Source of the DNA: Trypanosoma brucei
Taxonomy: Eukaryota
Reading direction: 5' to 3'
Assembly: GCA_000002445.1 (NCBI GenBank)
Contig: CP000070.1
Coordinates: 1,760,001-1,824,000 of the forward strand
Length of the DNA: 64,000 bases
This document shows positions 2,295-44,524 of this stretch, piece by piece; within the stretch, counting starts at the first letter, position 1, and each line of letters starts with the position of its first letter. The notes beneath the pieces were generated by a model. It made no database searches and was not told the DNA's origin. It saw nothing but the letters and a program-made list of their open reading frames with translations. The position numbers and the translations under genes are program-made.

Positions 2295-3089
2295 ATGAGC
2301 TCCACGAGGGCTGCTCTATTATGCATTGGCATCGCCATAATGTACAGTACGGGAGGTGACTGCTTCAGGCTCTATAGGATAACCAGGCAACATAAATGCA
2401 ACGAACTATCAAGCACATTCAATGAATACAGTCATGCCTTCACGAACTCATGGAGAAGTTTCCAATTCTCCCTGAATACCGCCAGATCCGCCAAAAAGAG
2501 GTGCGAAAGCGTCATGAACATAAGCCAGGACAAGGAGGTGTCGGAGAGCATTAATGAGGACAGAAAGAAGAAGGTGGATAAATATTATGATGCTATCCTA
2601 TACATTGAACCACAAATAGGAAACTACGAAAAGGAACTACATGAAACGCTTGCTGAAGTGCACGAAAAATGTAGCTTTTGGTTTTTGTATTTGCCAATGT
2701 CAACTGAGTTCCTAGAAAGCACGAACAGCAGGCTAGCGGAGGCGAAAAAGATTTTGGAAAAGATGATCGGTCTTACTCACGAGGCAAATGGGTACGCAAC
2801 AACCGCGAAGAACATGGAATGTTCCTTTGAATTGGTTGGACAGAAGGTTACGGAGAAAGAAAGGGAGTCTGATTCCAGCGACGCCAACGCAGCGCCCACC
2901 ACCCCTGACTCGACATCTCAGACCCACTCACCCAAGCAGCCAGTTCCACCCGAGGACGGTGATAAACACAAAACACACGGTGATGATAAAAAACACGACC
3001 ACAAGAAGCATGGCGACGAAGACGGTGAAGATGAGGATCATGAAGACGAAGAAGAGGGAGAAGAGGAAGAAGCCGGCGACGACGAATAA
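2295..3089 (+). CDS. secreted acidic-tail protein, family member G0 (paralogue of G1-G6 at 32-44.5 kb)
   Basis: The ATG at 2295 opens a hydrophobic signal peptide (MSSTRAALLCIGIAIMYSTGG). The conserved family motifs are present: KYYDAILYIEPQI and CSFWFLYLPMSTEF. The tail is a His/Asp/Glu-rich acidic region ending EEEEAGDDE. The gene aligns to the N-domain of the minus-strand paralogues. Confidence 0.7.
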   Translation: MSSTRAALLCIGIAIMYSTGGDCFRLYRITRQHKCNELSSTFNEYSHAFTNSWRSFQFSLNTARSAKKRCESVMNISQDKEVSESINEDRKKKVDKYYDAILYIEPQIGNYEKELHETLAEVHEKCSFWFLYLPMSTEFLESTNSRLAEAKKILEKMIGLTHEANGYATTAKNMECSFELVGQKVTEKERESDSSDANAAPTTPDSTSQTHSPKQPVPPEDGDKHKTHGDDKKHDHKKHGDEDGEDEDHEDEEEGEEEEAGDDE

Positions 3090-13231: not shown

Positions 13232-13395
<164 letters not shown>

Positions 13396-16440: not shown

Positions 16441-16619
16441 AAATTTACTAAAACTTGATATTTTAACACTTTTATAAAACCTTTGAAAAATTTTTAAAAT
16501 TTGAAAAAACTAAGAAACTTAGTAAAGTATGTACAATCGTATCCTATAAAAGAAATGTAGTAAGGTAATAGGATATAAAAAGTGAGTATCATCATCATTT
16601 TGTAAATTTATGGATATTT

Positions 16620-16720
16620 GTTAGGTTTATAATAATAATAATAATGATAATGATAATAATGATACGACAGTGTTGTTAGTGTTTGTATACTAAAATAATA
16701 GGAGCAGCAACAATAATTGT
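16620..16720 (+). repeat. 70-bp repeat (partial)
   Basis: The sequence ataataataataatgataatgataataatgatacgacagtgttgttagtgtttgtatactaaaataatagg matches the repeat. Confidence 0.65.
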
Positions 16721-19925: not shown

Positions 19926-20189
19926 AGTTTATTGTGTTAAAAACTTTTTTCTCAATTTTATCAAAACTTACAAAAATATGCTCTTCTTATAAAAATTTTT
20001 CTATTCTAATCAATTTTTAGACATTTTAAAAGTTTATGATAAAAATGTGAAAATTAGAGAAATTTCGAAAAAGTTGATATAAAAGTAGGCTATGGGTATA
20101 AAGTAGTTGTGTGATATAATTTTTAAAAACAGTGCTATTCTAGTTTGGTCTATTTTGTTTGTTTTTCTGTACATTCATTGGGGTTATAC

Positions 20190-20370
20190 TATTAATGTTT
20201 ATAATGATAATAATAATGATAGGAGAATGTTGTGAGTGTGCATATACAAATATTATAATAAAAGCAGTACTAATAATTATAGTGATAGTAGTAATAATAA
20301 TGATGATAGGAGAGTGTTGTGAGTGTGTATATACTGATATAGTAATGACAATAGTGGTTGTATACTAAAG
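20190..20370 (+). repeat. 70-bp repeats (about 2 copies)
   Basis: The core GGAGAATGTTGTGAGTGTGCATATACAAATATTATAATAAAAGCAG occurs twice, each with flanking TRR triplets. Confidence 0.8.
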
Positions 20371-21241
20371 GGAAAAAACAAAAGCATTTAAAATAATGGA
20401 GAGGACGCAAAGAGTATTGTTGATGAAACGCAGGAGGGTAAAGAAAGAGGGAGAGAGGAAAATAAAATATTCGCAGTCCCAAACACAGAAATAATGATTA
20501 AAAGAATCTTACAAAAAGAGATGAAAGAGGATGCAACAATTACGGAAATACAGAACGTAGTACACATTACAAACAGTGTCGCTTTTTTATCATCACCAAA
20601 AAAGCCAGTAGAATAATAAGTAAGAACGCCAATACTGAATGCAAAGAAAGATGCGGGGTAAAAAAACGGTGTATGGATGGAAATTATACAATGGACGAAA
20701 AGTGTGATACATATTTCGCAAAAACATGCTTATTTACCCCTAAGAAGATGATGATATCTGTATTTTGTGATTTGATGGGCTATCTTAATGCGCAGAGCTG
20801 TTTACCAAGGCGGTTGGCCGACAAGGCACCCAGGGCAGAGTTTCAATTCTGGGAAATAGGCGACAATAAAAAGGCAAGTTAGAATTTTGAGGGGTAATTT
20901 GCGGAAGTTTTATAGAGTATCACCAACTATTTTCACAGCGCAAGCGACAAACAATGCTAATATGGAACGAATAATCTTTACTGCCAGCATAGGGGGAAGT
21001 GAACGAACGCCAGTCAAAAACAGACGTAAACAGACACTACGGGAGGCGTCAAACGACCGAAGGTAACATAAAAGCGCTGCTTGAAGCAACAAACTGCGTG
21101 AAACAGACGAAGTAGCAGTGATAACCACCTAATAATCTGTTGAGACTTTGCAACCGTGTAGAAAGTTGCGTCTAGCATTTCCAAGCCACATTTAACCTTA
21201 CAACGGTTCTTCAAGGCAGAAGAAAAAACGAAGCTAAAACA

Positions 21242-30907: not shown

Positions 30908-31835
30908 TATCACCGCGGGCAAATCCCCGCAACACTCCCGCAGCTCATATAATTCGTCCCCTTCTTGAGCAAGTGGAAACGTGCGGTGCTTTAGGCTTAT
31001 ACAACTCTGTTGCAGATGTTTTTCTGTGCTTCCCCAGCCACTGCAATTCCCTTACTCTCCGTGTCAGGAATAACGTCAGTGACGGGATGTTACAAGTCAC
31101 CGCAAATCGAACCCCAGTCTTCTACACGAAATGTCTACCCGGCATAATCCCGTTTCCACGTATTGGCACGATGCTCAGTCCAACCGCTTTGTGCATTCAG
31201 GCATCAGCGCCACGCAGTTCGCATCATGTCAACCACGTGCATTCCTACGCTGTTGGTGAAAGAATGAGCCAGGAATTGAAGCACATGTACATCCATATGC
31301 AGGAGAGAGACAGTTCCCTCCTTCCCTCAAACAATACACACACGCCACACTACAGTCTCAAAATCACGTTCAGCATTTAACAGCATACACGACACTGTAA
31401 AAGGGACAAAAAGTCACTTCAAGCAAAGCATTACTTAGCATGCGATTACGTAGATATTCATATTGTTGCATGCCCTCCGTCACACGTTGGTACGTTGGAA
31501 CATGCTAACATCAACCATCCGTCCGTCCACACACACACGCACACACCGCTATTTAAAGCAGTTTCTATACATCATTCCACTACCCAGATCCCTTATGGAA
31601 AAATAGAACAGCCACCATGGCACTTTTCCCACAAGCTCATCAGGCCCAAAGGAAGAAAATGAACAATCTACATATTGCGTTTAGTATAGTGTAAGTGAAA
31701 AATAAAGCAATAAAAACAACACTAGTGAACACCGACACGACCCTTCACCACATAAACAGGACCATTACTATTAACACTGTTCTAACAAACTAACCGACCA
31801 ATAATTGAGCGATAATCACACTATCTACAAATAGA
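30908..31835 (+). repeat. family 3'-flank module downstream of G6 (parts B and A plus R), forming the right arm of the inverted repeat
   Basis: Positions 30908..31690 are near-identical to the reverse complement of 3360..4137. Positions 31283..31828 match the R module that recurs after each family gene. Confidence 0.85.
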
Positions 31836-32026
31836 AAATACATCACACGGCTCTACACACTTCCATCGGAATAGAAAATCTAACGCCCTCACCACTCAGC
31901 GCCGGGATCCTACGCAAACTGCGTAACCGTGACGAAAAATATTCTCCGCCGCGCGCACGATCAGAGACCCAACGGCTCCACGGTTACCAAAGCTACTATT
32001 GAAACTAGCCGGTATATGGGGGAGAC

Positions 32027-32644
32027 TCAAGGTCTCGGTGATGTTGCATTACCCCCTCCCACGGCGTCTGCCTCGTCGTCCTCATCTAATATTTCCCAAA
32101 AGTGTTCTGAAGTACATTTCTCCTTCTCAGCCTTCTCCGCTTCTCTCTCAGCATTCCTACTCAACGTCTCGGCTCTGACGGTATACTCATGTGCATCTAG
32201 AAAATTATCTTTCAACCCAAAAACGGCCTTCGTGGTGAGCACCGGTCTCTCGGGTGACTCCCCGCAGAACTTCACAACCTCAGTGAATAACTGACGGACA
32301 CGCCTTTCACTATTCGACAGCTGCGGCTCAATGTACTTAATCGCCCTGTAGTACTGGTCCGCCAGCTTCTTTCGCTGTGCATTGACAGCGTCAACCAACT
32401 CCTTCTGTTCATTCGACTTCACAATTGCGTCACATCTCTTCTTCACAACTTCAGCCCGCTCGGTGGCACGATCAAACCTGTGCCAAACATTAACTAAACG
32501 CATGTTTAAGCGACCATACGAAACTTTCAACCCCAGGCAATACCGCAATCGGCGCGTCGTTGATAGAGCGACGCTCCCCCCCACATTGCACAGAATGGCA
32601 ATGAAAAGGCACACGATGATTTTCTTCGCTAGATTCATTGTCAC
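32027..32644 (-). CDS. secreted acidic-tail protein, family member G6
   Basis: It opens with signal peptide MTMNLAKKIIVCLFIAILCNVGG and carries the family motifs QYYRAIKYIEPQL and CGESPERPVLTT (its CGFW motif is diverged). It has no hydrophobic C-terminus. Confidence 0.65.
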   Translation of the reverse strand: MTMNLAKKIIVCLFIAILCNVGGSVALSTTRRLRYCLGLKVSYGRLNMRLVNVWHRFDRATERAEVVKKRCDAIVKSNEQKELVDAVNAQRKKLADQYYRAIKYIEPQLSNSERRVRQLFTEVVKFCGESPERPVLTTKAVFGLKDNFLDAHEYTVRAETLSRNAEREAEKAEKEKCTSEHFWEILDEDDEADAVGGGNATSPRP

Positions 32645-32699
32645 ACACTTGTCTCTCCTATGTACCGCATGAAATTAAAAAAGAAAAACAGAATAATAT

Positions 32700-33043
32700 C
32701 TTTTGGGCAAGACAATACGAAAAGGGCAATGCAACATATGCAGGAGAGAGACAGTTTCCTCCTTCCCTCAAACAATAGACACACGCCACACTACAGTCTC
32801 ACAATCACATTGGTTATTTAAAAGCACTCACAACACTGTAAAAGGGACAAAAAGTCACTTCAAGCAAAGCATTACTTAGCATGCGGTTACGTAGATATTC
32901 ATATTGTTGCATGCCCTCCGTCACACGTTGGTACGTTGGAACATGCTAACATCAACCATCCGTCCGTCCACACACACACGCACATACCGCTATTTAAAGC
33001 GGTTTCTATACATCATTCCACTACCCAGATCCCTTATGGAAAA
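32700..33043 (+). repeat. conserved intergenic module R (truncated copy)
   Basis: It matches catatgcaggagagagacagtt...ccgctatttaaagc...cccttatggaaaa. Confidence 0.8.
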
Positions 33044-33329
33044 GTTAGTCCTTCCACTTGATACAACGCACGACGTCTCCTTACGACGCAGTATGTTATG
33101 TACAGAAAATAAAATCAAGTAAAGGTGTAGAAAGAGTGACGAAAAAGTGGCATGGTAAGTTGTTATGTGTCCCGCATCAGTATCATTCGAACAGTCGCTG
33201 CCAATACCGCCAAGGATGTGACCAACATGGCACTCAAAATTCCACCAAGCACTCGCACGAACCAGTGCCACTGCCGTCCCATACGCTCGCGGTGAATTCC
33301 TATCCAGCCTACCCATTACTCGGAACCGA

Positions 33330-34013
33330 TCACTGCGAGGTTACATTTTCACCACCAACAGGCGGGGCAGTGCCTTCGGGCGTTTCGGATGCTGCGCTTC
33401 CATCGTTGGGCTCCCCACCTTCTTTCTCTGGCTTTTTGTCTCCCTCTCCGCCCAATGCGTTCTTCGATTCAGCGGAACTGCATTGTGTCGTTCTGGCTTT
33501 CACTTCGCTTGTCTCCGCTTCCCTTGACAGCACCTCCATCTTTGATACTAAAGATTTGGCCTTCCACAATTTGACTCTCGCTTCACGCTTGAGCTCAGAA
33601 GACACTGGCATGAAAGACGACCAGAAGCCGCAATGCTTTCTTATACCATTAAGCAACTCGCGCACGTCTTTCTTGTACTCAATTACCTGAGTCTCAATAT
33701 ATCTAATGGCATTGTATTGTTCCACTACTAATTTCACTTTATCCGAGTTAGCGTTTTCCGTCCCTTCCCTAGTTTCACTTAGTCTAGCAGCCTTCTCACA
33801 GGATGTCCTCACAACCTTTGCACGATCCCGGCTACCATGAAGGGCCTGAAGCAAGGCTGTGCAGCGGCCACTTATTGAATTAATTGATCTTCTCAGTGAA
33901 TCACAATATCTCTCTCGCACTACCCTCTTGCTGAATGCAATACCACCCTGCACACTACATAGCATAGAAACGACAAGGCACACGGTGGCACCCCGCGCAA
34001 GCCTCATGGCCAT
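33330..34013 (-). CDS. secreted acidic-tail protein, family member G5
   Basis: It opens with signal peptide MAMRLARGATVCLVVSMLCSVQGG and carries EQYNAIRYIETQV and CGFWSSFMPVSSEL. Its tail is acidic and Gly-rich. Confidence 0.7.
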   Translation of the reverse strand: MAMRLARGATVCLVVSMLCSVQGGIAFSKRVVRERYCDSLRRSINSISGRCTALLQALHGSRDRAKVVRTSCEKAARLSETREGTENANSDKVKLVVEQYNAIRYIETQVIEYKKDVRELLNGIRKHCGFWSSFMPVSSELKREARVKLWKAKSLVSKMEVLSREAETSEVKARTTQCSSAESKNALGGEGDKKPEKEGGEPNDGSAASETPEGTAPPVGGENVTSQ

Positions 34014-34069
34014 CCTTGAAGACTACTTCCACAAACGAAAGTTATAAAAAAAAAAAGAAAAACAGAATA

Positions 34070-34560
34070 ATATCTTTTGGGCAAGACAATACGAAAAGGG
34101 CAATGCAACATATGCAGGAGAGAGACAGTTCCCTCCTTCCCTCAAACAATACACACACGCCACACTACAGTCTCAAAATCACATTGGTTATTTAAAAGCA
34201 CTCACAACACTGTAAAAGGGACAAAAAGTCACTTCAAGCAAAGCATTACTTAGCATGCGATTACGTAGATATTCATATTGTTGCATGCCCTCCGCCACAC
34301 GTTGGTACGTTGGAACATGCTAACATCAACCATCCGTCCGTCCACACACACACGCACACACCGCTATTTAAAGCAGTTTCTATACATCATTTCATTACCC
34401 AAATCCCTTATGGAAAAATAGAACCCGGAGCACGTCGCCGATCTGTTTATATCTTCAATAAAAAGAACAAAAAGTAAAGCATATTAATGTTATAAAGCAA
34501 TAAAGGAAAGCCACAGCACGCAGCTGAATAACTTGTTATCGTCTAAGAGACCATAATTCT
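34070..34560 (+). repeat. conserved intergenic module R, variant with the ggagcacgtcgccgatctg extension
   Basis: It matches the R core and also the reverse complement of 3290..3440. Confidence 0.8.
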
Positions 34561-34723
34561 GCCACCACTGCCCATCGGGCTGAAAGAACAGATGAGTGTA
34601 GCAATACTCTCGGCGGCCACATTAAGAAACAGCCTGTCGCATCCCTTTAGTATTCAGCGTGCCTTACATTCTCCTCAGCAGCGTAGTTAGCATCCACCCC
34701 CATTCCAGTTATCACTTAATGGC

Positions 34724-35437
34724 TCAATTAGCAGATTCTGTGCCCGCATGTTCCTCACGGGTCTCGGACGAGGTAGTGGACGTGGCCCTATCGAGCTCAC
34801 GAGTTCCGACAGTTGGAGTGGTGTCTTGTAGTGAGTCACCGCCACTTTGCGGCTCCGCTTCACTTCTTGTGACTTCCTCCTGCGTATCTGTAGCTGGCGC
34901 GGAGCACCACTCCCCTGAAGCGTGAGAAGCATAAGATTTCGCATTTTCACTGAGTGATTCCACCTTCGATATCAATTCTGAAGCCTCCTCAAGGTGGCGT
35001 TTTGTGATATCACGCAGAAACGAGGATACGGGAGTGAAAGACAACCAGAAGCCGCAGTGCTTTCCCAAACCGATTAATAAATCGTGAATTTTTTTTTCGT
35101 AATCGGATATCTGCCGTTCATTATACATAATAGCGTTGTAGTACTCATTCACTAATTTCATTTTATCCGAGTTAGCAGCATCACTCACTTCCTTCTCTTC
35201 ACTTAACTTAACAAACCTTTCGCAATTTTCTTTAACATTCTCCACCTTATGAAGTGCATCCTCAAAAACATTCCAGGTGTCAGTAAACCGCTTCCCCAAT
35301 TCCTCAACTGTTGCCTTCAACTTTGTACAGTATCCCCCTTTTTTTTCAACCAGAGAAAAACCACGCACGCCCCCCACATTGCACAGAATGGCAATGAAAA
35401 GGCACACGATGATTTTCTTCGCTAGATTCATTGTCAC
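34724..35437 (-). CDS. secreted acidic-tail protein, family member G4
   Basis: It opens with signal peptide MTMNLAKKIIVCLFIAILCNVGG and carries NEYYNAIMYNERQI and CGFWLSFTPVSSFL. Its tail is S/T/E-rich. Confidence 0.7.
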   Translation of the reverse strand: MTMNLAKKIIVCLFIAILCNVGGVRGFSLVEKKGGYCTKLKATVEELGKRFTDTWNVFEDALHKVENVKENCERFVKLSEEKEVSDAANSDKMKLVNEYYNAIMYNERQISDYEKKIHDLLIGLGKHCGFWLSFTPVSSFLRDITKRHLEEASELISKVESLSENAKSYASHASGEWCSAPATDTQEEVTRSEAEPQSGGDSLQDTTPTVGTRELDRATSTTSSETREEHAGTESAN

Positions 35438-35499
35438 ACACTTGTCTCTCCTATGTACCGCATGAAATTAAAAAAGAAAAACAGAATAATATCTTTTGG

Positions 35500-36060
35500 G
35501 CAAGACAATACGGAAAGCACATGTACATCCATATGCAGGAGAAAGACAGTTTCCTCCTTCCCTCAAACAATAGACACACGCCACACTACAGTCTCAAAAT
35601 CACGTTGGGTATTTAAAAGCACTCACAACACTGTAAAAGGGACAAAAAGTCACTTCAAGCAAAGCATTACTTAGCATGCGATTACGTAGATATTCATATT
35701 GTTGCATGCCCTCCGTCACACGTTGGTACGTTGGAACATGCTAACATCAACCATCCGTCCGTCCACACACACACGCACACACCGCTATTTAAAGCGGTTT
35801 CTATACATCATTTCATCACCCAATTCCCTTATGGAAAAATAGAACGACCACCATGGCACTTTTCCCACAAGCTCATCAGGCCCAAAGGAAGAAAATGAAC
35901 AATCTACATATTGCGTTTAGTATAGTGTAAGTGAAAAATAAAGCAATAAAAACAACACTAGTGAACACCGACACGACCCTTCACCACATAAACAGGACCA
36001 TTACTATTAACACTGTTCTAACAAACTAACCGACCAATAATTGAGCGATAATCACACTAT
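35500..36060 (+). repeat. conserved intergenic module R
   Basis: It is near-identical to 31283..31828 and 39420..39960. Confidence 0.85.
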
Positions 36061-36132
36061 CTACGATAAAACAAAAAAGGTATTCTACCCAACAGCTGCT
36101 GGATCACTATAAACACATCATGCCCAAATCCA

Positions 36133-39100
36133 TTATTGCACAGACACACCCTCGGCACCTACGGATCCAGCAGTTTCTTTAGGTCCAGCACTTCCCTCAG
36201 ATCCAGCACTTTCTTTGGGTCCAGCAGTTTCTTTGGGTCCAGCAGCTTCTTTAGGTCCAGCATTTCCCTCAGATCCAGCACTTCCCTCAGATCCAGCACT
36301 TTCTTTAGGTCCAGCACTTTCTTTAGGTCCAGCACTTCCCTCAGATCCAGCACCTTCTTTAGGTTCAGCAGTTTCTTTAGGTCCAACACTTTCCTCAGAT
36401 CCAGCACCTTCTTTAGGTCCAGCAGTTTCTTTGGGTCCAGCAGCTTCTTTAGGCCCAGCACTTCCCTCAGATCCAGCACTTTCTTCAGGTCCAGCAGTTT
36501 CTTTAGGTCCAGCACTTCCCTCAGATCCAGCACTTTCTTTAGGTCCAGCAGTTTCTTTAGGTCCAGCACTTTCCTCAGATCCAGCACTTTCTTTGGGTCC
36601 AGCAGTTTCTTTGGGTCCAGCACTTTCTTTAGGTCCAGCAGCTTCTTTAGGTCCAGCACTTCCCTCAGATCCAGCACCTTCTTTAGGTCCAGCAGCTTCT
36701 TTAGGTCCAGCACTTCCCTCAGATCCAGCACTTTCTTTGGGTCCAGCAGTTTCTTTGGGTCCAGCAGCTTCTTTAGGTCCAGCACTTCCCTCAGATCCAG
36801 CACTTTCTTTAGGTCCAGCAGTTTCTTTAGGTCCAGCACTTTCCTCAGATCCAGCACTTTCTTTAGGTCCAGCACTTTCTTTAGGTCCAGCACTTCCCTC
36901 AGATCCAGCACCTTCTTTAGGTTCAGCAGTTTCTTTAGGTCCAACACTTTCCTCAGATCCAGCACCTTCTTTAGGTCCAGCAGTTTCTTTGGGTCCAGCA
37001 GCTTCTTTAGGCCCAGCACTTCCCTCAGATCCAGCACTTTCTTTAGGTCCAGCAGTTTCTTTAGGTCCAGCACTTCCCTCAGATCCAGCACCTTCTTTAG
37101 GTTCAGCAGTTTCTTTAGGTCCAGCACTTCCCTCAGATCCAGCACTTTCTTTGGGTCCAGCACTTTCTTTGGGTCCAGCACTTTCTTTAGGTCCAGCACT
37201 TCCCTCAGATCCAGCACCTTCTTTAGGTTCAGCAGTTTCTTTAGGTCCAGCACTTTCTTTAGGTCCAGCACTTTCCTCAGATCCAGCACTTTCTTTGGGT
37301 CCAGCAGTTTCTTTGGGTCCAGGACTTTCTTTAGGTCCAGCAGTTTTTTTAGGTCCAGCACTTTCTTTAGGTCCAGCACTTCCCTCAGATCCAGCACTTT
37401 CTTTAGGTCCAGCACTTTCTTTAGGTCCAGCAGTTTTTTTAGGTCCAGCACTTTCTTTAGGTCCAGCACTTCCCTCAGATCCAGCACTTTCTTTAGGTCC
37501 AGCAGTTTCTTTAGGTCCAGCACTTTCCTCAGATCCGGCACTTTCTTTAGGTCCAGCAGCTTCTTTAGGTCCAGCACTTCCCTCAGATCCAGCACTTTCT
37601 TTAGGTCCAGCACTTTCTTTAGGTCCAGCAGTTTCTTTGGGTCCAGCAGCTTCTTTAGGTCCAGCACTTCCCTCAGATCCAGCACTTTCTTTAGGTCCAG
37701 CAGTTTCTTTAGGTCCAGCACTTTCCTCAGATCCAGCACTTTCTTTGGGTCCAGCAGTTTCTTTGGGTCCAGCACTTTCTTTAGGTCCAGCAGCTTCTTT
37801 AGGTCCAGCACTTCCCTCAGATCCAGCACCTTCTTTAGGTCCAGCAGCTTCTTTAGGTCCAGCACTTCCCTCAGATCCAGCACTTTCTTTGGGTCCAGCA
37901 GTTTCTTTGGGTCCAGCAGCTTCTTTAGGTCCAGCACTTCCCTCAGATCCAGCACTTTCTTTAGGTCCAGCAGTTTCTTTAGGTCCAGCACTTTCCTCAG
38001 ATCCAGCACTTTCTTTGGGTCCAGCAGTTTCTTTGGGTCCAGCAGTTTCTTTGGGTCCAGCAGTTTCTTTGGGTCCAGCAGCTTCTTTAGGTCCAGCACT
38101 TCCCTCAGATCCAGCACCTTCTTTAGGTCCAGCAGCTTCTTTAGGTCCAGCACTTCCCTCAGATCCAGCACTTTCTTTGGGTCCAGCATTTCCCTCAGAT
38201 CCAGCACTTCCCTCAGATCCAGCATTTCCCTCAGATCCAGCACTTCCCTCAGGTCCAGCACCTTCTTTAGGTCCAGCACTTTCTTTAGGTCCAGCACTTT
38301 CTTTGGGTCCAGCACTTCCCTCAGATCCAGCACTTCCCTCAGATCCAGCACTTTCTTTAGGTCCAGTACTTTCTTTGGGTCCGGCACTTTCTTTAGGTCC
38401 AGCACTTTCTTTAGGTCCAGTACTTTCTTTGGATCCAGCACTTTCTTTAGGTCCAGTACTTTCTTTGGGTCCAGCACTTCCCTCAGATCCAGCACTTCCC
38501 TCAGGTCCAGCACCTTCTTTAGGTCCAGCACTTTCTTTAGGTCCAGCACTTTCTTTAGGTCCAGCACTTCCCTCAGATCCAGCACTTCCCTCAGATCCAG
38601 CACTTTCTTTAGGTCCAGTACTTTCTTTGGGTCCGGCACTTTCTTTAGGTCCAGCACTTTCTTTAGGTCCAGCACTTTCCTCAGATCCAGCACCTTCTTT
38701 AGGGTCGACAAGACCCCCAGGCGTGACGGGGGTACCTTGCGTTTTGGGCGACTCTAAGGAAGTTGGACTGCTATTTTTTGTTTTGTTTGTCCTATTGACC
38801 TCTTTTTCGGTGGACATTTCGTCGGTTTCTGTGCCAGGATCAAGGAAAGTGCATATTCCCTCTTTTAGATTTTCCCCGTAATACCTGGCATCAAAACTAA
38901 GAGCCTCAATTCTTGCCGTAAGAAATTTGACCTGTAACAAATTGGTAGTTGTATACCGGTGTACCTCATCAGATAATAGCGTGAAAGACACCCAAAAGCC
39001 ACATTCTTTTTTAATGTTGCCAACCAATTCGTGTACCTTCTTTTCGTGGTCATCAACCTTGCGTTTTATAAGAAGGATGGCATCATTGTACCCATCCAGT

Positions 39101-39417
39101 ATCTTTATTCGCTCCCATGCAAAAGTACTCCTACCACTGGTGTCAAGTATCCTACAGTTAACAACCTCCTCCCTAACATTTACAAGTGAACGCTTGACGT
39201 CACGTTTTGCCTGCTCCAAACGATTATTAATATCAAATAAAAGACGCTTCATTCTTGCACAATATCTCGCTCTGCTCTCCCATCTATTAAAAAAACTGCT
39301 GGCATCAACAACATATGATGTATGCACCACAAAAAATAGCACAATACACCACAGAACATGCATTTTCTTCAACGACAACAACACAAAAACAATAAAAAAA
39401 AACAATAGCACATGCAC
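36133..39417 (-). CDS. family member G3 with a giant hexapeptide-repeat tail (1094 aa; an alternative start at 39363)
   Basis: The N-domain (RYCARMK...DGYNDAILLIKRKV...CGFWVSFTLLSDEV) differs from siblings in its signal peptide (MHVLWCIVLFFVVHTSYVVDASS). About 140 units of GPKESA/GPKETA/GSEGSA/GPKEAA follow. The C-terminus SAGSVGAEGVSVQ is identical to that of G2. Confidence 0.7.
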   Translation of the reverse strand: MHVLLFFFIVFVLLSLKKMHVLWCIVLFFVVHTSYVVDASSFFNRWESRARYCARMKRLLFDINNRLEQAKRDVKRSLVNVREEVVNCRILDTSGRSTFAWERIKILDGYNDAILLIKRKVDDHEKKVHELVGNIKKECGFWVSFTLLSDEVHRYTTTNLLQVKFLTARIEALSFDARYYGENLKEGICTFLDPGTETDEMSTEKEVNRTNKTKNSSPTSLESPKTQGTPVTPGGLVDPKEGAGSEESAGPKESAGPKESAGPKESTGPKESAGSEGSAGSEGSAGPKESAGPKESAGPKEGAGPEGSAGSEGSAGPKESTGPKESAGSKESTGPKESAGPKESAGPKESTGPKESAGSEGSAGSEGSAGPKESAGPKESAGPKEGAGPEGSAGSEGNAGSEGSAGSEGNAGPKESAGSEGSAGPKEAAGPKEGAGSEGSAGPKEAAGPKETAGPKETAGPKETAGPKESAGSEESAGPKETAGPKESAGSEGSAGPKEAAGPKETAGPKESAGSEGSAGPKEAAGPKEGAGSEGSAGPKEAAGPKESAGPKETAGPKESAGSEESAGPKETAGPKESAGSEGSAGPKEAAGPKETAGPKESAGPKESAGSEGSAGPKEAAGPKESAGSEESAGPKETAGPKESAGSEGSAGPKESAGPKKTAGPKESAGPKESAGSEGSAGPKESAGPKKTAGPKESPGPKETAGPKESAGSEESAGPKESAGPKETAEPKEGAGSEGSAGPKESAGPKESAGPKESAGSEGSAGPKETAEPKEGAGSEGSAGPKETAGPKESAGSEGSAGPKEAAGPKETAGPKEGAGSEESVGPKETAEPKEGAGSEGSAGPKESAGPKESAGSEESAGPKETAGPKESAGSEGSAGPKEAAGPKETAGPKESAGSEGSAGPKEAAGPKEGAGSEGSAGPKEAAGPKESAGPKETAGPKESAGSEESAGPKETAGPKESAGSEGSAGPKETAGPEESAGSEGSAGPKEAAGPKETAGPKEGAGSEESVGPKETAEPKEGAGSEGSAGPKESAGPKESAGSEGSAGSEGNAGPKEAAGPKETAGPKESAGSEGSAGPKETAGSVGAEGVSVQ
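36160..38705 (-). repeat. 18-nt tandem repeat array of about 140 units (GGACCTAAAGAAAGTGCT and variants), coding
   Basis: Perfect 18-nt periodicity is visible on the plus strand as ggtccagcactttcttta / ggatctgagggaagtgct variants. All six frames are open across it, which produces the artefactual overlapping ORFs. Confidence 0.95.
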
Positions 39418-39419
39418 AT

Positions 39420-39960
39420 GCAGGAGAGAGACAGTTCCCTCCTTCCCTCAAACAATAGACACACGCCACACTACAGTCTCAAAATCACGTTCAGCATTTA
39501 ACAGCATACACGACACTGTAAAAGGGACAAAAAGTCACTTCAAGCAAAGCATTACTTAGCATGCGGTTACGTAGATATTCATATTGTTGCATGCCCTCCG
39601 TCACACGTTGGTACGTTGGAACATGCTAACTCCCTTATCTCACGGCCGCTCCTCCCCACCGCTATTTAAAGCGGTCCTAACGTAATCTTATAACTAACCG
39701 GATCCCTTATGGAAAAATAGAACGACCACCATGGCACTTTTCCCACAAGCTCATCAGGCCCAAAGGAAGAAAATAAACAATCTAAATGATATCAATAATA
39801 TAATGTAAAAATAAAGCAATAAAAACAACACTAGTGAACACCGACACGACCCTTCACCACATAAACAGGACCATTACTATTAACAGTGTTCTAACAAACT
39901 AACCGACCAATAATTGAGCGATAATCACACTATCTACGATAAAACAAAAAAGGTATTCTA
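39420..39960 (+). repeat. conserved intergenic module R
   Basis: It is near-identical to 35500..36060. Confidence 0.85.
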
Positions 39961-40005
39961 CCCAACAGCTGCTGGATCATTATAAACACATCATGCCCAA
40001 ATCCA

Positions 40006-43000
40006 TTATTGCACAGACACACCCTCGGCACCTACGGATCCAGCACTTTCTTTAGGTCCAGCAGTTTCTTTGGGTCCAGCACTTTCTTTAGGTCCAGCAC
40101 TTCCCTCAGATCCAGCACTTTCTTTGGGTCCAGCAGTTTCTTTGGGTCCAGCACTTCCCTCAGATCCAGCACTTTCTTTAGGTCCAGCAGTTTCTTTAGG
40201 TCCAGCACTTTCCTCAGATCCGGCACTTTCTTTAGGTCCAGCACTTTCTTTAGGTCCAGCAGTTTCTTTGGGTCCAGCAGTTTCTTTGGGTCCAGCACTT
40301 CCCTCAGATCCAGCAGTTTCTTTGGGTCCAGCACTTCCCTCAGATCCAGCACCTTCTTTAGGTCCAGCATTTCCCTCAGATCCAGCACTTCCCTCAGATC
40401 CAGCACTTTCTTTAGGTCCAGCACTTCCCTCAGATCCGGCACTTTCTTTAGGTCCAGCACTTTCTTTGGGTCCAGCACTTTCTTTAGGTCCAGCATTTCC
40501 CTCAGATCCAGCACTTCCCTCAGATCCAGCACTTTCTTTAGGTCCAGCACTTTCTTTAGGTCCAGCACTTCCCTCAGATCCAGCACCTTCTTTAGGTCCA
40601 GCACTTTCTTTAGGTCCAGCAGCTTCTTTAGGTCCAGCACTTTCTTTAGGTCCAGCAGTTTCTTTAGGTCCAGCACTTTCCTCAGATCCGGCACTTTCTT
40701 TAGGTCCAGCACTTTCTTTGGGTCCGGCACTTTCTTTAGGTCCAGCAGCTTCTTTAGGTCCAGCACTTTCCTCAGATCCGGCACTTTCTTTAGGTCCAGC
40801 ACTTTCCTCAGATCCAGCAGCTTCTTTAGGTCCAGCACTTTCCTCAGATCCAGCAGTTTCTTTAGGTTCAGCACTTTCTTTAGGTCCAGCACTTTCCTCA
40901 GATCCGGCACTTTCTTTAGGTCCAGCACTTTCTTTGGGTCCAGCACTTTCCTCAGATCCAGCAGCTTCTTTAGGTCCAGCACTTTCCTCAGATCCAGCAG
41001 TTTCTTTAGGTCCAGCACTTTCCTCAGATCCAGCAGTTTCTTTAGGTTCAGCACTTTCTTTAGGTCCAGCACTTTCTTTAGGTCCAGCACCTTCTTTAGG
41101 TCCAGCACTTTCTTTAGGTCCAGCACTTTCTTTAGGTCCAGCACCTTCTTTAGGTCCAGCACTTTCCTCAGATCCAGCAGTTTCTTTAGGTTCAGCACTT
41201 TCTTTAGGTCCAGCACTTTCTTTAGGTCCAGCAGCTTCTTTAGGTCCAGCACTTTCTTTAGGTCCAGCACCTTCTTTAGGTCCAGTACTTTCTTTAGGTC
41301 CAGCACTTTCTTTAGGTCCAGCACCTTCTTTAGGTCCAGCACTTTCTTTAGGTCCAGCAGCTTCTTTAGGTCCAGCAGCTTCTTTAGGTCCAGCACTTCC
41401 CTCAGATCCAGCACCTTCTTTAGGTCCAGCATTTCCCTCAGATCCAGCATTTCCCCCAGATCCAGCACTTTCTTTGGGTCCAGCATTTCCCTCAGATCCA
41501 GCATTTCCCCCAGATCCAGCACTTTCTTTGGGTCCAGCACTTTCCTCAGATCCAGCAGCTTCTTTAGGTCCAGCACTTTCTTTAGGTCCAGCACTTTCTT
41601 TAGGTCCAGCAGCTTCTTTAGGTCCAGCAGCTTCTTTAGGTCCAGCACTTCCCTCAGATCCAGCACCTTCTTTAGGTCCAGCATTTCCCTCAGATCCAGC
41701 ATTTCCCCCAGATCCAGCACTTTCTTTGGGTCCAGCATTTCCCTCAGATCCAGCATTTCCCCCAGATCCAGCACTTTCTTTGGGTCCAGCACTTTCTTTA
41801 GGTCCAGCACTTTCTTTAGGTCCAGCACTTTCTTTAGGTCCAGCAGCTTCTTTAGGTCCAGCATTTCCCTCAGATCCAGCAGCTTCTTTAGGTCCAGCAC
41901 TTTCCTCAGATCCAGCACCTTCTTTAGGTTCAGCACTTTCTTTAGGTCCAGCACTTTCTTTAGGTCCAGCAGCTTCTTTAGGTCCAGCATTTCCCTCAGA
42001 TCCAGCATTTCCCCCAGATCCAGCACTTTCCTCAGATCCGGCACTTTCTTTAGGTCCAGCACTTCCCTCAGATCCAGCAGCTTCTTTAGGTCCAGCACTT
42101 TCTTTGGGTCCAGCAGCTTCTTTAGGTCCAGCACTTCCCTCAGATCCAGCAGCTTCTTTAGGTCCAGCATTTCCCTCAGATCCAGCATTTCCCCCAGATC
42201 CAGCACTTTCTTTGGGTCCAGCATTTCCCTCAGATCCAGCAGTTTCTTTAGGTCCGGCAGTTTCTTTGGGTCCAGCACTTTCTTTAGGTCCAGCAGTTTC
42301 TTTAGGTCCAGCACTTTCCTCAGATCCAGCACTTTCTTTAGGTCCAGCAGCTTCTTTAGGTCCAGCACTTTCCTCAGATCCAGCACTTTCTTTGGGTCCA
42401 GCAGCTTCCTTGGTGGTGACCGTTTCTTTTGGCGACTGGGATGTCGCACCACTGCTTTTGGGTTCCTCTTGTTTTTTCTTTGCCTTTTCTTCCTCCTCCC
42501 CCGCCAATACATTCTCTGTCCCCACCAAGACGCATCTGTTTCTTGCGGCGGTATCGCTGTGATTTTTTGCACCAAGACTGAGTTTGTCTATCATTATCGT
42601 TAGGGATCTTGCTTCTAACAGTTTTTCTTTAACAGTTCTTTTGAATGACGATGTGAGTGGCATGAAAGACAACCAGAAGCCGCAGCCGTTCCATATTTCA
42701 CCAGTCAAAGTGTTGATCTTCCTTTCGCAATCACCGATGAGCAGTTCAATTTGCCTAATGGCACTGTAGCTCTCGTCTACTAACTTAAGTTTTTCTGAGT
42801 TGGTGGCGCCAGAAACGTCCTTGGCTTTCTTATGCTTCAAAATACCTTCGCATTCTGCTTTTACGGCTAGCGTGTTATTGAACGCACGGTCGAATACGTT
42901 CCATGACTCTGAAAATCGGTTGTTAACTTTGTTAATAACACTTTTGACCTTTTTACAATGAGCTGCTCTGCTTTCCCGCCTCTCGAAACCACGCACGCCC

Positions 43001-43065
43001 CCCACATTGCACAGAATGGCAATGAAAAGGCACACGATGATTTTCTTCGCTAGATTCATTGTCAC
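40006..43065 (-). CDS. family member G2 with a giant hexapeptide-repeat tail (1019 aa)
   Basis: It opens with signal peptide MTMNLAKKIIVCLFIAILCNVGG and carries the N-domain motifs (ESYSAIRQIELLI, CGFWLSFMPLTSSF). About 130 hexapeptide units follow, including GSGGNA/GSEGNA/GPKEGA variants absent from G3. Confidence 0.7.
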   Translation of the reverse strand: MTMNLAKKIIVCLFIAILCNVGGVRGFERRESRAAHCKKVKSVINKVNNRFSESWNVFDRAFNNTLAVKAECEGILKHKKAKDVSGATNSEKLKLVDESYSAIRQIELLIGDCERKINTLTGEIWNGCGFWLSFMPLTSSFKRTVKEKLLEARSLTIMIDKLSLGAKNHSDTAARNRCVLVGTENVLAGEEEEKAKKKQEEPKSSGATSQSPKETVTTKEAAGPKESAGSEESAGPKEAAGPKESAGSEESAGPKETAGPKESAGPKETAGPKETAGSEGNAGPKESAGSGGNAGSEGNAGPKEAAGSEGSAGPKEAAGPKESAGPKEAAGSEGSAGPKESAGSEESAGSGGNAGSEGNAGPKEAAGPKESAGPKESAEPKEGAGSEESAGPKEAAGSEGNAGPKEAAGPKESAGPKESAGPKESAGPKESAGSGGNAGSEGNAGPKESAGSGGNAGSEGNAGPKEGAGSEGSAGPKEAAGPKEAAGPKESAGPKESAGPKEAAGSEESAGPKESAGSGGNAGSEGNAGPKESAGSGGNAGSEGNAGPKEGAGSEGSAGPKEAAGPKEAAGPKESAGPKEGAGPKESAGPKESTGPKEGAGPKESAGPKEAAGPKESAGPKESAEPKETAGSEESAGPKEGAGPKESAGPKESAGPKEGAGPKESAGPKESAEPKETAGSEESAGPKETAGSEESAGPKEAAGSEESAGPKESAGPKESAGSEESAGPKESAEPKETAGSEESAGPKEAAGSEESAGPKESAGSEESAGPKEAAGPKESAGPKESAGPKESAGSEESAGPKETAGPKESAGPKEAAGPKESAGPKEGAGSEGSAGPKESAGPKESAGSEGSAGSEGNAGPKESAGPKESAGPKESAGSEGSAGPKESAGSEGSAGSEGNAGPKEGAGSEGSAGPKETAGSEGSAGPKETAGPKETAGPKESAGPKESAGSEESAGPKETAGPKESAGSEGSAGPKETAGPKESAGSEGSAGPKESAGPKETAGPKESAGSVGAEGVSVQ
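40030..42405 (-). repeat. 18-nt tandem repeat array of about 130 units, coding
   Basis: It has the same 18-nt unit family as 36160..38705 but a different mix and order of variant units. Confidence 0.95.
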
Positions 43066-43129
43066 ACACTTGTCTCTCCTATGTACCGCATGAAATTAAA
43101 AAAGAAAAACAGAATAATATCTTTTGGGC

Positions 43130-43700
43130 AAGACAATAGGGAAAGCACATGTACATCCATATGCAGGAGAAAGACAGTTTCCTCCTTCCCTCAAACAATA
43201 GACACACGCCACACTACAGTCTCACAATCACGTTGGGTATTTAAAAGCACTCACAACACTGTAAAAGGGACAAAAAGTCACTTCAAGCAAAGCATTACTT
43301 AGCATGCGATTACGTAGATATTCATATTGTTGCATGCCCTCCGTCACACGTTGGTACGTTGGAACATGCTAACATCAACCATCCGTCCGTCCACACACAC
43401 ACGCACACACCGCTATTTAAAGCAGTTTCTATACATCATTCCACTACCCAAATGTCCCATGCTTATCCGGAAGCCGGAGCACGTCGCCGATCTGTTCATA
43501 TCTTCAATAAAAAGAACAAAAAGTAAAGCATATTAATGTTATAAAGCAATAAAGGAAAACCACAGCACGCAGCTGAATAACTTGTTATCATCGAAGCAGC
43601 ATCTCAACCTACGTAGCCTTGAGCAAGACGAAGCAACATCTTCCATCGTCGTGTTCCCAATCAAATAAAATCCGTTGACTCCTTCTTACATTCAACTTGT
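43130..43700 (+). repeat. conserved intergenic module R plus G1-type 3' flank
   Basis: It matches the R core. Positions 43440..43670 match the reverse complement of 3203..3440. Confidence 0.8.
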
Positions 43701-43708
43701 CTCATGCT

Positions 43709-44524
43709 CTAATCCACCTCTGCCTGGGCCTCCTTCCCTACCGCAGGTTCAGCAACAACAGCAGGTTCCTCGTCGGCGGTTTTTTCCCCAAGACCTTCTT
43801 GGCTGCTATCGGTGTCACCTTTAGCGGTGTCAGTCGACCTCTTTTCTTCTCTCTGCTCATCCATACTTGTGGGTGATTCAGGAGATTCGGGCACGGGGCC
43901 ATCGGATGTTTCCTCGTTCTGTTTGCCGGAAGTGTCTTCACCAGCACCTGCCTCCTTCTCTCTGCGTTTATCCTCCACCGTGGAGCACTCATCATTCGCC
44001 GCATCAGCGGCATAGCTCGCCGCATCTCCACTAAGAGTTTCAATTTTCGACACCTTGCCTGTAGCTTCAGCCGTCGTCTCCTCAATGCTCCGTTTGAATG
44101 AAATGGTTACTGGCATGAAGGACAACCAAAACCCGCATCGGTCCTTTAGATACACCGTTAGTTTGTGTAAATCGCGCTCGTAGTTCCTAATCTCTGTTCC
44201 GACATACATGATCGCGTTGTAGTACTCATCTACAACTCTCTTCTTTCCGCTGTCTGCAACATCTGTTATCTCATCGTCGCTGACTTTCTTCACGTCCTCG
44301 TCGCACTTTCCCTTGACAACACTGGTTCGCTTGAGAGCAACTTCAAACGTGTGCCATGCGTTTGCATAGCGGGTATTAATGGCCCGAACTGATTTGGCCA
44401 CTGTAGTACAGTATTCTGAGCGGCTTATCCTTCCCCAATGAGAAGAGGACTTGCCTCCAATACTGCATAGCCCGGCCACGAGAATATATAGTGTTACGCC
44501 CCTTGCGAAAACCATTATTTTCAA
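43709..44524 (-). CDS. secreted acidic-tail protein, family member G1
   Basis: It opens with signal peptide MKIMVFARGVTLYILVAGLCSIGG and carries DEYYNAIMYVGTEI and CGFWLSFMPVTISF. Its acidic tail ends AQAEVD. Confidence 0.7.
   Translation of the reverse strand: MKIMVFARGVTLYILVAGLCSIGGKSSSHWGRISRSEYCTTVAKSVRAINTRYANAWHTFEVALKRTSVVKGKCDEDVKKVSDDEITDVADSGKKRVVDEYYNAIMYVGTEIRNYERDLHKLTVYLKDRCGFWLSFMPVTISFKRSIEETTAEATGKVSKIETLSGDAASYAADAANDECSTVEDKRREKEAGAGEDTSGKQNEETSDGPVPESPESPTSMDEQREEKRSTDTAKGDTDSSQEGLGEKTADEEPAVVAEPAVGKEAQAEVD

What the first reader, a model, noticed from the sequence alone, without database searches (positions are those of the whole stretch)
40030..42405. G2 carries a second, independently structured array of about 130 18-nt repeats; the G2 and G3 arrays share unit types but differ in composition and order
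G2's array contains variants absent or rare in G3: GSGGNAGSEGNA blocks, GPKEGA, and a run of GSEESAGPKE(S/T/A)A(E/G)PKE. Meanwhile the last repeat, the C-terminus (SAGSVGAEGVSVQ) and the 3' flank are identical between G2 and G3.

This pattern implies the two genes descend from a duplication, after which the arrays expanded or contracted separately by unequal crossing-over. The 5' ends differ, as G2 has the MTMNLAKK signal peptide and G3 has MHVLWCIV.

The result is two very large, repeat-dominated secreted proteins expressed from adjacent genes.
Basis: seen in the sequence. Interest (0 to 1): 0.5.

Follow-up and report, generated by a model that had tools for sequence, protein, structure and literature searches.

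The report
Repeat tails of two trypanosome proteins
The window is Trypanosoma brucei TREU927 chromosome 7, and the two adjacent repeat-filled genes are known members of the Fam10/SGM1 secreted-protein family (SGM1.6 and SGM1.5), so the separately organised arrays of 132 and 141 six-residue repeats are real but ordinary.

Summary
G2 (CDS 40006-43059, minus strand) carries 132 in-frame 18-nt units at 40042-42417. G3 (36133-39363) carries 141 units. About 90% of units in each array belong to 11 shared DNA unit types. Order is not shared: the longest run of identical units between arrays is 5 (chance level), against private internal duplications of 11 units in G2 and 19 and 10 units in G3.

The window is T. 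b. brucei TREU927 chromosome 7. Four neighbouring paralogs are 100% identical to TREU927 proteins. By gene order, G3 is Tb927.7.6580 (SGM1.5) and G2 is Tb927.7.6590 (SGM1.6). Vigneron et al. 2020 already note "a repetition sequence in SGM1.5 and SGM1.6". Published tables list both among proteins detected by surface-labelling proteomics. TrypTag places both in the flagellar pocket lumen.

The helical N-domains are about 30% identical in protein and 62% in DNA. From the first repeat onward similarity rises to 85% or more, and to 99% for about 200 nt past the stop codon. All Fam10 intergenic regions are 77-99% identical. That is a mosaic maintained by recombination or conversion, not a simple duplication with uniform divergence.

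Verdict: real, not an assembly artefact, already known, low interest.

The parts
40006..43059 (-). G2 coding sequence (1017 aa plus stop). By gene order it is Tb927.7.6590 / SGM1.6, a Fam10 member.
   Evidence: Translation. ATG position follows the paralogs that match TREU927 proteins exactly. The flanking genes are AAZ12718 and AAZ12721, leaving two consecutive accession slots for G3 and G2.
42991..43059 (-). G2 signal peptide MNLAKKIIVCLFIAILCNVGGVR. The first 75 nt of CDS are 96-99% identical to paralogs 32027 and 34724.
42541..42969 (-). G2 three-helix-bundle N-domain (residues about 31-173), with four family-invariant cysteines and the CGFW motif.
42418..42540 (-). G2 acidic/lysine-rich linker (…AGEEEEKAKKKQEEPKSSGATSQSPKETV) between the bundle and the array. 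It shows no DNA homology to G3.
   Evidence: blastn homology between G2 and G3 begins at about 42409-42414.
40042..42417 (-). G2 array: 132 units of 18 nt (hexapeptides). The consensus is GGACCTAAAGAAAGTGCT = GPKESA, with 16 DNA unit types.
41326..41796 (-). Private segmental duplication inside the G2 array. Two exact 219-nt copies (41578-41796 and 41326-41544) lie 14 units apart and carry the SgnSgnGeAAS block (GSGGNA/GSEGNA-containing).
   Evidence: exactness verified.
40006..40041 (-). C-terminal tail GSVGAEGVSVQ plus stop, identical in G2 and G3. It is not hydrophobic, so there is no GPI signal or transmembrane segment.
   Evidence: PMC10089363 states that Fam10 lacks a TM domain or GPI signal.
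39364..40005 (-). G2 3' flank, which is the whole G2-G3 intergenic region (642 nt). It has 2 mismatches to the G3 flank in the first 198 nt, is 93% identical overall, and is also 90% identical to the flank of the repeat-less paralog 32027.
36133..39363 (-). G3 coding sequence (1076 aa plus stop). By gene order it is Tb927.7.6580 / SGM1.5. It has a distinct signal peptide (MHVLWCIV...) and the most divergent N-domain of the family.
36169..38706 (-). G3 array: 141 units of 18 nt with 20 DNA unit types. It contains an exact 366-nt internal duplication (37651-38016 and 36499-36864, 64 units apart) and a further 10-unit duplication at lag 31.
43709..44515 (-). Upstream paralog without repeats, 100% identical to TREU927 XP_846280.1. 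By consecutive accession order it is Tb927.7.6600 = SGM1.7.
34724..35431 (-). Downstream paralog without repeats, identical to TREU927 XP_846277.1. It is ESP17 = Tb927.7.6570.
33330..34013 (-). Fam10 paralog without repeats, identical to TREU927 XP_846276.1.
32027..32638 (-). Fam10 paralog without repeats, identical to TREU927 AAZ12716.1.
2295..3089 (+). Seventh Fam10 gene, on the far side of the VSG array, 100% identical to TREU927 XP_846272.1. It has a His/Asp/Glu-rich tail.

Best explanation
G2 and G3 are the two repeat-bearing members (SGM1.6/Tb927.7.6590 and SGM1.5/Tb927.7.6580) of the Fam10/SGM1 family of Trypanosoma brucei. Fam10 is a tandem cluster on chromosome 7 beside an internal VSG array.

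Each protein has four parts:
- a signal peptide;
- a roughly 150-residue disulfide-bonded three-helix bundle of the trypanosome surface-receptor type;
- a tail of about 800 residues made of GPKESA-like hexapeptides, which is low-complexity, hydrophilic (GRAVY -1.19) and acidic (net charge about -55);
- a short non-hydrophobic C-terminus.

The proteins are therefore released or loosely surface-associated rather than anchored.

Shown here: the arrays occupy the same position in both genes and draw on one pool of 18-nt variants, including synonymous CCT/CCC and GCT/GCC variants. Each array is built from its own segmental duplications.

Inferred: the arrays grow and shrink by unequal sister-chromatid or intra-array recombination and by replication slippage. 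Occasional exchange or conversion between the two adjacent genes, and among all Fam10 intergenic regions, keeps the unit pool, the C-terminus and the 3' flank nearly identical while the helical domains diverge.

Inferred function of the tail: a long disordered polyanionic extension that also presents a highly repetitive B-cell epitope on a protein made mainly by metacyclic (transmission-stage) and, at lower level, bloodstream forms.
For: Identity of the locus:
- Four window paralogs are 100% identical to TREU927 proteins.
- ESP17 = Tb927.7.6570 = the gene just downstream of G3.
- Fam10 membership of Tb927.7.6490 and 6550-6600 comes from the Gadelha supplementary tables.
- The repeats in SGM1.5 and SGM1.6 are stated in the Vigneron 2020 SI Fig. 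S5 legend.

Anatomy:
- Translations and unit counts.
- Alignment with 4 invariant Cys and the CGFW motif.
- The AlphaFold2 model is a three-helix bundle with pTM 0.65 and pLDDT above 90 in the helices.
- The tail has pI 4.6-4.7, net charge -57 (G2) and -55 (G3), and no N-X-S/T sequons in the repeats.

Array dynamics:
- 11 shared unit types cover about 90% of units.
- The longest exact stretch shared between arrays is 118 nt, against internal exact repeats of 219 nt (G2) and 366 nt (G3).
- Unit-run analysis against shuffled controls.

Mosaic pattern:
- N-domain 61-70% nt identity versus intergenic 77-99% across the family, and 99% for the first 198 nt after the G2 and G3 stop codons.

Expression and localisation from the literature:
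- Flagellar pocket lumen for Tb927.7.6580 and Tb927.7.6590 (PMC9981465).
- Both listed among proteins detected in the surface-labelled bloodstream proteome (PMC4587319 supplement).
- Tb927.7.6590 transcripts are higher in metacyclic clusters than in epimastigotes (PMC7007551 dataset).
- No TM or GPI signal in Fam10 (PMC10089363).
Against: - The assignment of G2 and G3 to Tb927.7.6590 and Tb927.7.6580 rests on gene order and consecutive accession numbers. My exact translations of G2 and G3 are not in the protein collection, so the deposited gene models or array sequences may differ.
- The function of the tail is pure inference. No experiment addresses it, and no homolog outside T. brucei carries the array.
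- Conversion between arrays is not directly demonstrated. The shared variant pool could be ancestral, and the contrast between the N-domain and the flanks could instead reflect extreme positive selection on the N-domain.
- The TREU927 arrays come from a Sanger-era assembly and could contain length errors. Against that, the longest exact repeats (366 nt) are shorter than a Sanger read.
Confidence: 0.85

Rival explanations
1. Assembly artefact: a single repeat-bearing gene was duplicated, or two identical arrays were mis-resolved, so the differences between the G2 and G3 arrays are assembly noise.
For: Other assemblies fail at this locus. T. b. equiperdum IVM-t1 has a 100-N gap in place of both arrays. 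DAL972 has two gaps, an inverted contig and frameshifted repeats.
Against: - The two genes have N-domains only about 30% identical and different signal peptides.
- Both N-domain/array junctions are found independently in DAL972 at about 99% identity.
- Both reading frames stay intact through 132 and 141 units with clean 18-nt phase.
- The longest exact repeats (118 nt between arrays, 366 nt or less within) are shorter than Sanger reads.
- Both gene IDs were separately tagged and separately detected by proteomics.
Confidence: 0.04
2. Simple duplication without later exchange. G2 and G3 are sister genes. The arrays and flanks are similar because the duplication is recent, and the N-domains diverged through very rapid positive selection.
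For: - Neighbour-joining on the mature domain pairs G2 with G3 (60% bootstrap), and G3's best match is G2 at 30%.
- The array sits at the same position, and the C-terminus is identical.
Against: - 62% nt identity in the N-domain is close to saturation and equals the divergence between any other pair in the family.
- The transition to 85% or more is abrupt, at the first repeat.
- The same kind of flank conservation (77-99%) links paralogs that are clearly not recent duplicates. G3's 3' flank is 95% identical to that of the repeat-less gene 32027.
- Three genes share a 96-99% identical signal-peptide segment joined to divergent mature domains.
Confidence: 0.1
3. The arrays are non-coding satellite DNA or pseudogene remnants, or they are read on the opposite strand as annotated in DAL972. 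The long ORF would then be a by-product of a stop-free repeat unit.
For: Four of the six frames are open across each array. DAL972 carries an antisense gene call of 1080 aa on array DNA.
Against: - Only the sense frame is continuous with a signal peptide plus a conserved Fam10 domain upstream and a conserved C-terminus and stop downstream.
- Unit variants never break the frame.
- The antisense call in DAL972 follows from loss of the N-domain in an assembly gap.
- The Gadelha supplementary tables list Tb427.07.6580, Tb427.07.6590 and Tb927.7.6590 among detected proteins.
Confidence: 0.01

Closest known systems
SGM1.5 / SGM1.6 (Fam10; Tb927.7.6580 / Tb927.7.6590) of T. brucei TREU927, as described by Jackson 2013, Gadelha 2015 and Vigneron 2020
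   Same: Same locus and, by gene order, the same genes. The literature already notes that these two members end in 'a repetition sequence' and are the most divergent of the family.
   Different: In the papers I could read, there is no unit map, no array sizes, no account of private versus shared blocks, and no description of the mosaic of conserved flanks and divergent N-domains. Those details are what this analysis adds.
Trypanosome three-helix-bundle surface proteins: HpHbR (4e40, 4x0j), factor H receptor (6xz6), GARP (2y44), MISP (5vtl)
   Different: Sequence identity is only 4-9%, and no Pfam family is matched. Those proteins are GPI-anchored at the C-terminus. G2 and G3 have no anchor signal and carry an 800-residue repeat tail instead.
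Procyclins (EP and GPEET) of T. brucei
   Same: Short acidic Pro/Glu-containing tandem repeats form an extended hydrophilic C-terminal region of a stage-specific secreted-pathway protein (from general knowledge).
   Different: Procyclin repeats are 2-5 residues long and number in the tens, the proteins are GPI-anchored, and they lack a helical-bundle domain. There is no sequence relationship.
Repeat-array antigens of other parasites (Plasmodium CSP central repeats, T. cruzi SAPA/TcMUC)
   Same: Long arrays of short hydrophilic units evolve by unequal exchange and are typically length-polymorphic and immunodominant (from general knowledge).
   Different: These are unrelated proteins. Immunodominance and length polymorphism of the G2 and G3 tails are not demonstrated.

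Membership tests
Fam10 / SGM1 (T. brucei cell-surface phylome family 10) | N-terminal signal peptide followed by the family's roughly 150-aa domain (four conserved Cys, CGFW motif) | tested here: met
   Alignment A1 of the six tandem paralogs has invariant C34, C69, C125-G126 and C175. A profile built from it retrieves the TREU927, DAL972 and T. equiperdum Fam10 proteins at E 1e-79 to 1e-92.
Fam10 / SGM1 (T. brucei cell-surface phylome family 10) | Position in the chromosome 7 cluster Tb927.7.6550-6600, next to Tb927.7.6570 (ESP17) and Tb927.7.6600 (SGM1.7) | tested here: met
   The flanking genes are 100% identical to XP_846277.1 (ESP17 cluster) and XP_846280.1. G3 and G2 occupy the two intervening accession slots. 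The exact G2 and G3 protein records could not be retrieved.
Fam10 / SGM1 (T. brucei cell-surface phylome family 10) | No transmembrane segment and no GPI-addition signal | tested here: met
   The C-terminus ...SAGSVGAEGVSVQ is not hydrophobic, and the tail has GRAVY -1.19. This agrees with PMC10089363.
Fam10 / SGM1 (T. brucei cell-surface phylome family 10) | Preferential expression in salivary-gland metacyclic forms | not testable with these tools
   Literature only. In the Vigneron dataset the three cluster values for Tb927.7.6590 are about 119, 713 and 515, which I read as Epim, Meta1 and Meta2. Tb927.7.6580 was not found in the stored part of the table.
Trypanosome GPI-anchored three-helix-bundle receptors (HpHbR/GARP/FHR/MISP) | Elongated three-helix-bundle ectodomain | tested here: met
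Trypanosome GPI-anchored three-helix-bundle receptors (HpHbR/GARP/FHR/MISP) | C-terminal GPI anchor signal | tested here: not met
   No hydrophobic C-terminal segment.
Trypanosome GPI-anchored three-helix-bundle receptors (HpHbR/GARP/FHR/MISP) | Detectable sequence homology (for example a Pfam GARP or related profile) | tested here: not met
   No Pfam family matched at E<=0.01 apart from a sub-threshold COG3_N hit. Structural alignments show 4-9% identity.
Procyclin-type repeat coat proteins | Short acidic repeat array plus GPI anchor, procyclic-stage expression | tested here: not met
   A repeat array is present, but there is no GPI signal. The literature reports metacyclic and bloodstream expression.

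The most novel reading that the evidence does not exclude
The Fam10 cluster may be a recombination-maintained mosaic. In this reading, the regulatory and intergenic DNA, the signal-peptide segment and the repeat-array-plus-3'-end module are shuffled or converted among paralogs, while the three-helix bundles are driven apart by diversifying selection for host or vector ligands. The array module would have been copied between two already divergent genes. The resulting anchor-less proteins of about 100 kDa, with tails of about 800 residues, would act as soluble, length-variable, immunodominant decoys released by metacyclic trypanosomes at the bite site.
Probability: 0.2. Interest if true: 0.45.

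Novelty: already known. Interest (0 to 1): 0.18.

Why it matters
Fam10/SGM1 proteins are being explored as non-variant, transmission-blocking vaccine antigens (PMC7007551).

Two of the seven members are about 80% repeat by length. Their arrays appear to be recombination-prone and are lost or scrambled in the other assemblies examined. Three consequences follow:
- Read mapping and expression estimates for sgm1.5 and sgm1.6 are unreliable.
- The DAL972 annotation at this locus is wrong.
- Any vaccine or serology work should consider the repetitive epitope and its possible strain-to-strain length variation.

Beyond that, this is an ordinary case of tandem-repeat evolution in a known parasite surface-protein family.

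Tried and rejected
1. A protein-database search with full-length G2 returned nothing (8000 word-sharing candidates, none significant). The low-complexity tail swamps the search, so a capped search was wasted.

2. Exact-sequence look-ups of G2, G3 and the 43709 gene in the contig index found no record. The 43709 protein is known to be in TREU927, so the index is incomplete for that assembly and nothing can be inferred from the misses.

3. A unit-by-unit comparison with T. b. gambiense DAL972 was attempted. It was rejected as evidence for biological array turnover because that assembly has two gaps, an inverted contig, frameshifts within the repeats and possibly a chimeric join. Only the conservation of the two N-domain/array junctions is used.

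4. T. b. equiperdum IVM-t1 has a 100-N gap instead of the arrays, so no comparison is possible.

5. I looked for the origin of the repeat unit in the C-terminal linker of repeat-less paralogs. There is a weak protein-level resemblance (o33330 ...TPEGTAPPVGGENVTSQ* against G2 ...SPKETV[array]GSVGAEGVSVQ*). A DNA alignment around the stop codons gave nothing, so this stays speculation.

6. I considered that G2 is closer to 34724 than to G3, which would have proved module transfer. Over the whole N-terminal region G2 is 43% identical to 34724 and 26% to G3. This is inflated by the shared signal peptide. On the mature domain the figures are 38% and 30%, and neighbour-joining weakly pairs G2 with G3, so the argument was dropped.

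7. Pfam gave no family for any Fam10 protein.
Full report
**What the window is.**
- ORFs on the plus strand at 8.7-22.9 kb match VSG Pfam domains (VSG_B, Trypan_glycop, Trypan_glycop_C).
- A (TAA)52 tract lies at 13237-13392.
- A degenerate non-LTR retroelement lies on the minus strand at 24.9-29 kb. It has RNase H, RVT_1 and a 2A-like DVEENPGP motif.
- Four small ORFs in the window are 100% identical to T. b. brucei TREU927 proteins XP_846272.1, AAZ12716.1, XP_846276.1, XP_846277.1 and XP_846280.1 (five proteins in all, including the plus-strand gene).
- The window is therefore TREU927 chromosome 7, at the border between an internal VSG array and core genes such as an N6-adenine methyltransferase-like gene.

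**The gene family.**
- Six paralogs lie head to tail on the minus strand: 32027-32638, 33330-34013, 34724-35431, G3 at 36133-39363, G2 at 40006-43059, and 43709-44515. Spacers are 642-710 nt.
- A seventh paralog lies at 2295-3089 on the plus strand.
- All share a signal peptide and a roughly 150-residue domain with four invariant cysteines and a CGFW motif.
[quoted passage not shown] ESP17 is Tb927.7.6570 and is flagged Fam10 in the Gadelha et al. 2015 supplement (PMC4587319), as are Tb927.7.6490, 6580 and 6590.
- Vigneron et al. 2020 (PMC7007551) renamed Fam10 as SGM1.1-1.7 in chromosomal order, with SGM1.7 = Tb927.7.6600.
- By gene order and by the two free accession slots between AAZ12718 and AAZ12721, G3 is Tb927.7.6580 (SGM1.5) and G2 is Tb927.7.6590 (SGM1.6). 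This step is an inference, because my exact translations are not in the protein collection.

**Already described.**
- The legend of SI Fig. [quoted passage not shown] It also says these two are the most divergent members.
- TrypTag (PMC9981465) reports Tb927.7.6580 and Tb927.7.6590 as apparently lumenal flagellar pocket proteins.
- Both are listed among proteins detected in the bloodstream-form surface-labelled proteome.
- PMC10089363 notes that Fam10 proteins lack a TM domain or GPI signal.
- The existence of two adjacent, repeat-dominated, secreted Fam10 proteins is therefore known.

**Checking the observation.**
- Tandem Repeats Finder detects the arrays with scores around 2900-3400.
- In the coding frame G2 has 132 hexapeptide units (40042-42417) and G3 has 141 (36169-38706).
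- The consensus unit is GGACCTAAAGAAAGTGCT (GPKESA). Units differ from it by about 2 nt on average, at a handful of positions.
- G2 uses 16 DNA unit types and G3 uses 20. The 11 shared types cover 120/132 and 126/141 units, and include synonymous variants (CCT/CCC, GCT/GCC) present in both arrays.
- Composition differs (chi-square p=0.007). GSGGNA (6/0), GSEGNA (10/3), EPKETA (3/0) and GSEESA (15/7) favour G2. GSEGSA (12/28) and GPKETA (11/24) favour G3.

**Order of units.**
- The longest run of identical units on any G2-versus-G3 diagonal is 5, no better than shuffled arrays (mean 4.1, maximum 6).
- G2 contains an 11-unit duplication at lag 14. This is an exact 219-nt repeat at 41578-41796 and 41326-41544.
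- G3 contains a 19-unit duplication at lag 64 (an exact 366-nt repeat) and a 10-unit duplication at lag 31.
- The longest exact stretch shared between the arrays is 118 nt.
- The exact repeats are shorter than a Sanger read, so correct assembly was feasible.

**Ends of the arrays.**
- The last units differ by one base (GPKESA versus GPKETA).
- The following 36 nt (GSVGAEGVSVQ plus stop) are identical.
- The first 198 nt of 3' flank have 2 mismatches. Divergent patches follow, and the overall figure is 93% over about 580 nt.
- Upstream, blastn homology between the genes stops at the first repeat.

**Evolutionary reading.**
- The mature N-domains of G2 and G3 are 30% identical in protein and 62% in DNA, like any other pair in the family (22-39% aa, 61-70% nt).
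- Intergenic regions are 77-99% identical among all paralogs.
- G3's 3' flank is 95% identical to that of the repeat-less gene 32027.
- Three genes (32027, 34724, G2) share a 96-99% identical first 75 nt of coding sequence, joined to divergent mature domains.
- Flank identity therefore does not date a G2/G3 duplication. The family is a mosaic in which non-coding DNA and certain coding modules are homogenised while the helical domain diverges.
- Neighbour-joining on the mature domain pairs G2 with G3 only weakly (60% bootstrap). Common descent of the two repeat-bearing genes is plausible but not established.
- The sharp identity step at the array border needs either inter-paralog conversion of the array-plus-3' module or very strong diversifying selection on the N-domain.
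- Private segmental duplications fit unequal exchange within each array.

**Other strains.**
- In T. b. gambiense DAL972 (L003 plus L005) both N-domain/array junctions are present at about 99% identity. Both repeat-bearing genes therefore predate the split of the subspecies.
- The DAL972 scaffold has two 100-N gaps with a 7.6-kb contig between them in inverted orientation. Its repeats contain frameshifts. It carries gene calls of 918 and 1080 aa on array DNA, the latter antisense.
- T. b. equiperdum IVM-t1 has a 100-N gap where both arrays belong.
- No reliable cross-strain unit map could be obtained.

**What the proteins look like.**
- An AlphaFold2 model of the G2 N-terminal region (6-sequence alignment; pTM 0.65; helices mostly above pLDDT 90) gives three long helices at model residues 30-79, 84-126 and 136-172.
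- Sequence identity to these is 4-9%, and no Pfam family is matched. This is fold-level resemblance, not demonstrated membership. The GPI anchor that characterises those proteins is absent.
- The tails are Gly/Ala/Glu/Ser/Lys/Pro-rich, with pI about 4.6-4.7, net charge -57 (G2) and -55 (G3), GRAVY -1.19, and no N-glycosylation sequons.
- A profile of the six N-domains also finds T. congolense IL3000 'cell surface-expressed gene family' proteins at E 1e-21 to 1e-31. None of those I read carries such an array.

**Function (inferred).**
- G2 and G3 are soluble or loosely attached secreted proteins whose helical bundle may bind a ligand.
- The roughly 800-residue disordered polyanionic tail probably acts as an extended hydrophilic spacer and a highly repetitive epitope.
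- Nothing here tests this.

**Verdict.**
- The feature is real and correctly described apart from small details.
- It is not an assembly artefact.
- The evolutionary interpretation needs amending to a mosaic or conversion model.
- The genes and their repeats are already in the literature, so interest is low.

Noticed in passing
window 31300-44500 (all Fam10 spacers); compare 42985-43453, 35363-35845, 34051-34424, 32571-33043: Intergenic regions of the six tandem Fam10 genes are 77-99% identical. Three genes share a 96-99% identical signal-peptide segment. The mature domains are only 61-70% (nt) identical. This is a sharp mosaic suggesting concerted evolution of regulatory DNA alongside divergence of the ectodomain.
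   Followed up: partly
L003 1-6530 and L005 10808-20807 (T. b. gambiense DAL972 chr 7, FN554970.1): The DAL972 scaffold has two 100-N gaps with an inverted contig of about 7.6 kb between them. That contig carries the G2 array end, the G2-G3 spacer, the G3 N-domain and the G3 array start. The annotated 918-aa and 1080-aa 'genes' sit on array DNA, the 1080-aa one antisense to the Fam10 frame. This is likely a mis-scaffold plus mis-annotation.
   Followed up: partly
L001 9116-9215 (T. b. equiperdum IVM-t1 chr 7, CM010678.1): A 100-N gap replaces both repeat-bearing genes. Sequence resumes within the last units of the G3 array.
   Followed up: yes
window 42541-42969 (G2 N-domain) and its paralogs: The Fam10 N-domain is predicted to be a three-helix bundle. 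Its best structural matches are HpHbR, the factor H receptor, GARP and MISP. A profile search also finds T. congolense IL3000 homologs (E 1e-21 to 1e-31), although some database records label the family 'T. brucei spp.-specific'.
   Followed up: partly
window 2295-3089 (+): A seventh Fam10 gene (identical to XP_846272.1, probably Tb927.7.6490) lies on the opposite strand across the VSG array. It ends in a His/Asp/Glu-rich low-complexity tail (…HKTHGDDKKHDHKKHGDEDGEDEDHEDEEEGEEEEAGDDE).
   Followed up: partly
window 8704-22885 (+), 13237-13392: An internal array of four VSG ORFs (A- and B-type N-domains) with a (TAA)52 tract. ORF fragments at 11495-13050 may be a VSG pseudogene.
   Followed up: partly
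window 24886-28951 (-): A degenerate ingi/L1Tc-like non-LTR retroelement, split into several ORFs (2A-like DVEENPGP N-terminus, RVT_1, RNase H, C2H2 fingers), sits between the VSG array and the Fam10 cluster.
   Followed up: partly
window 58345-58612, inside ORF 57377-62269 (-): A GC-rich 51-nt (99-nt) imperfect tandem repeat lies within a 1630-aa ORF that has no Pfam match.
   Followed up: no
window 36136-38881 and 40009-42603 (+), plus extra minus-strand frames: Several long ORFs (830-888 aa) on the opposite strand and in other frames run across both arrays. They arise only because the 18-nt unit lacks stop codons in those frames and should not be annotated as genes.
   Followed up: yes
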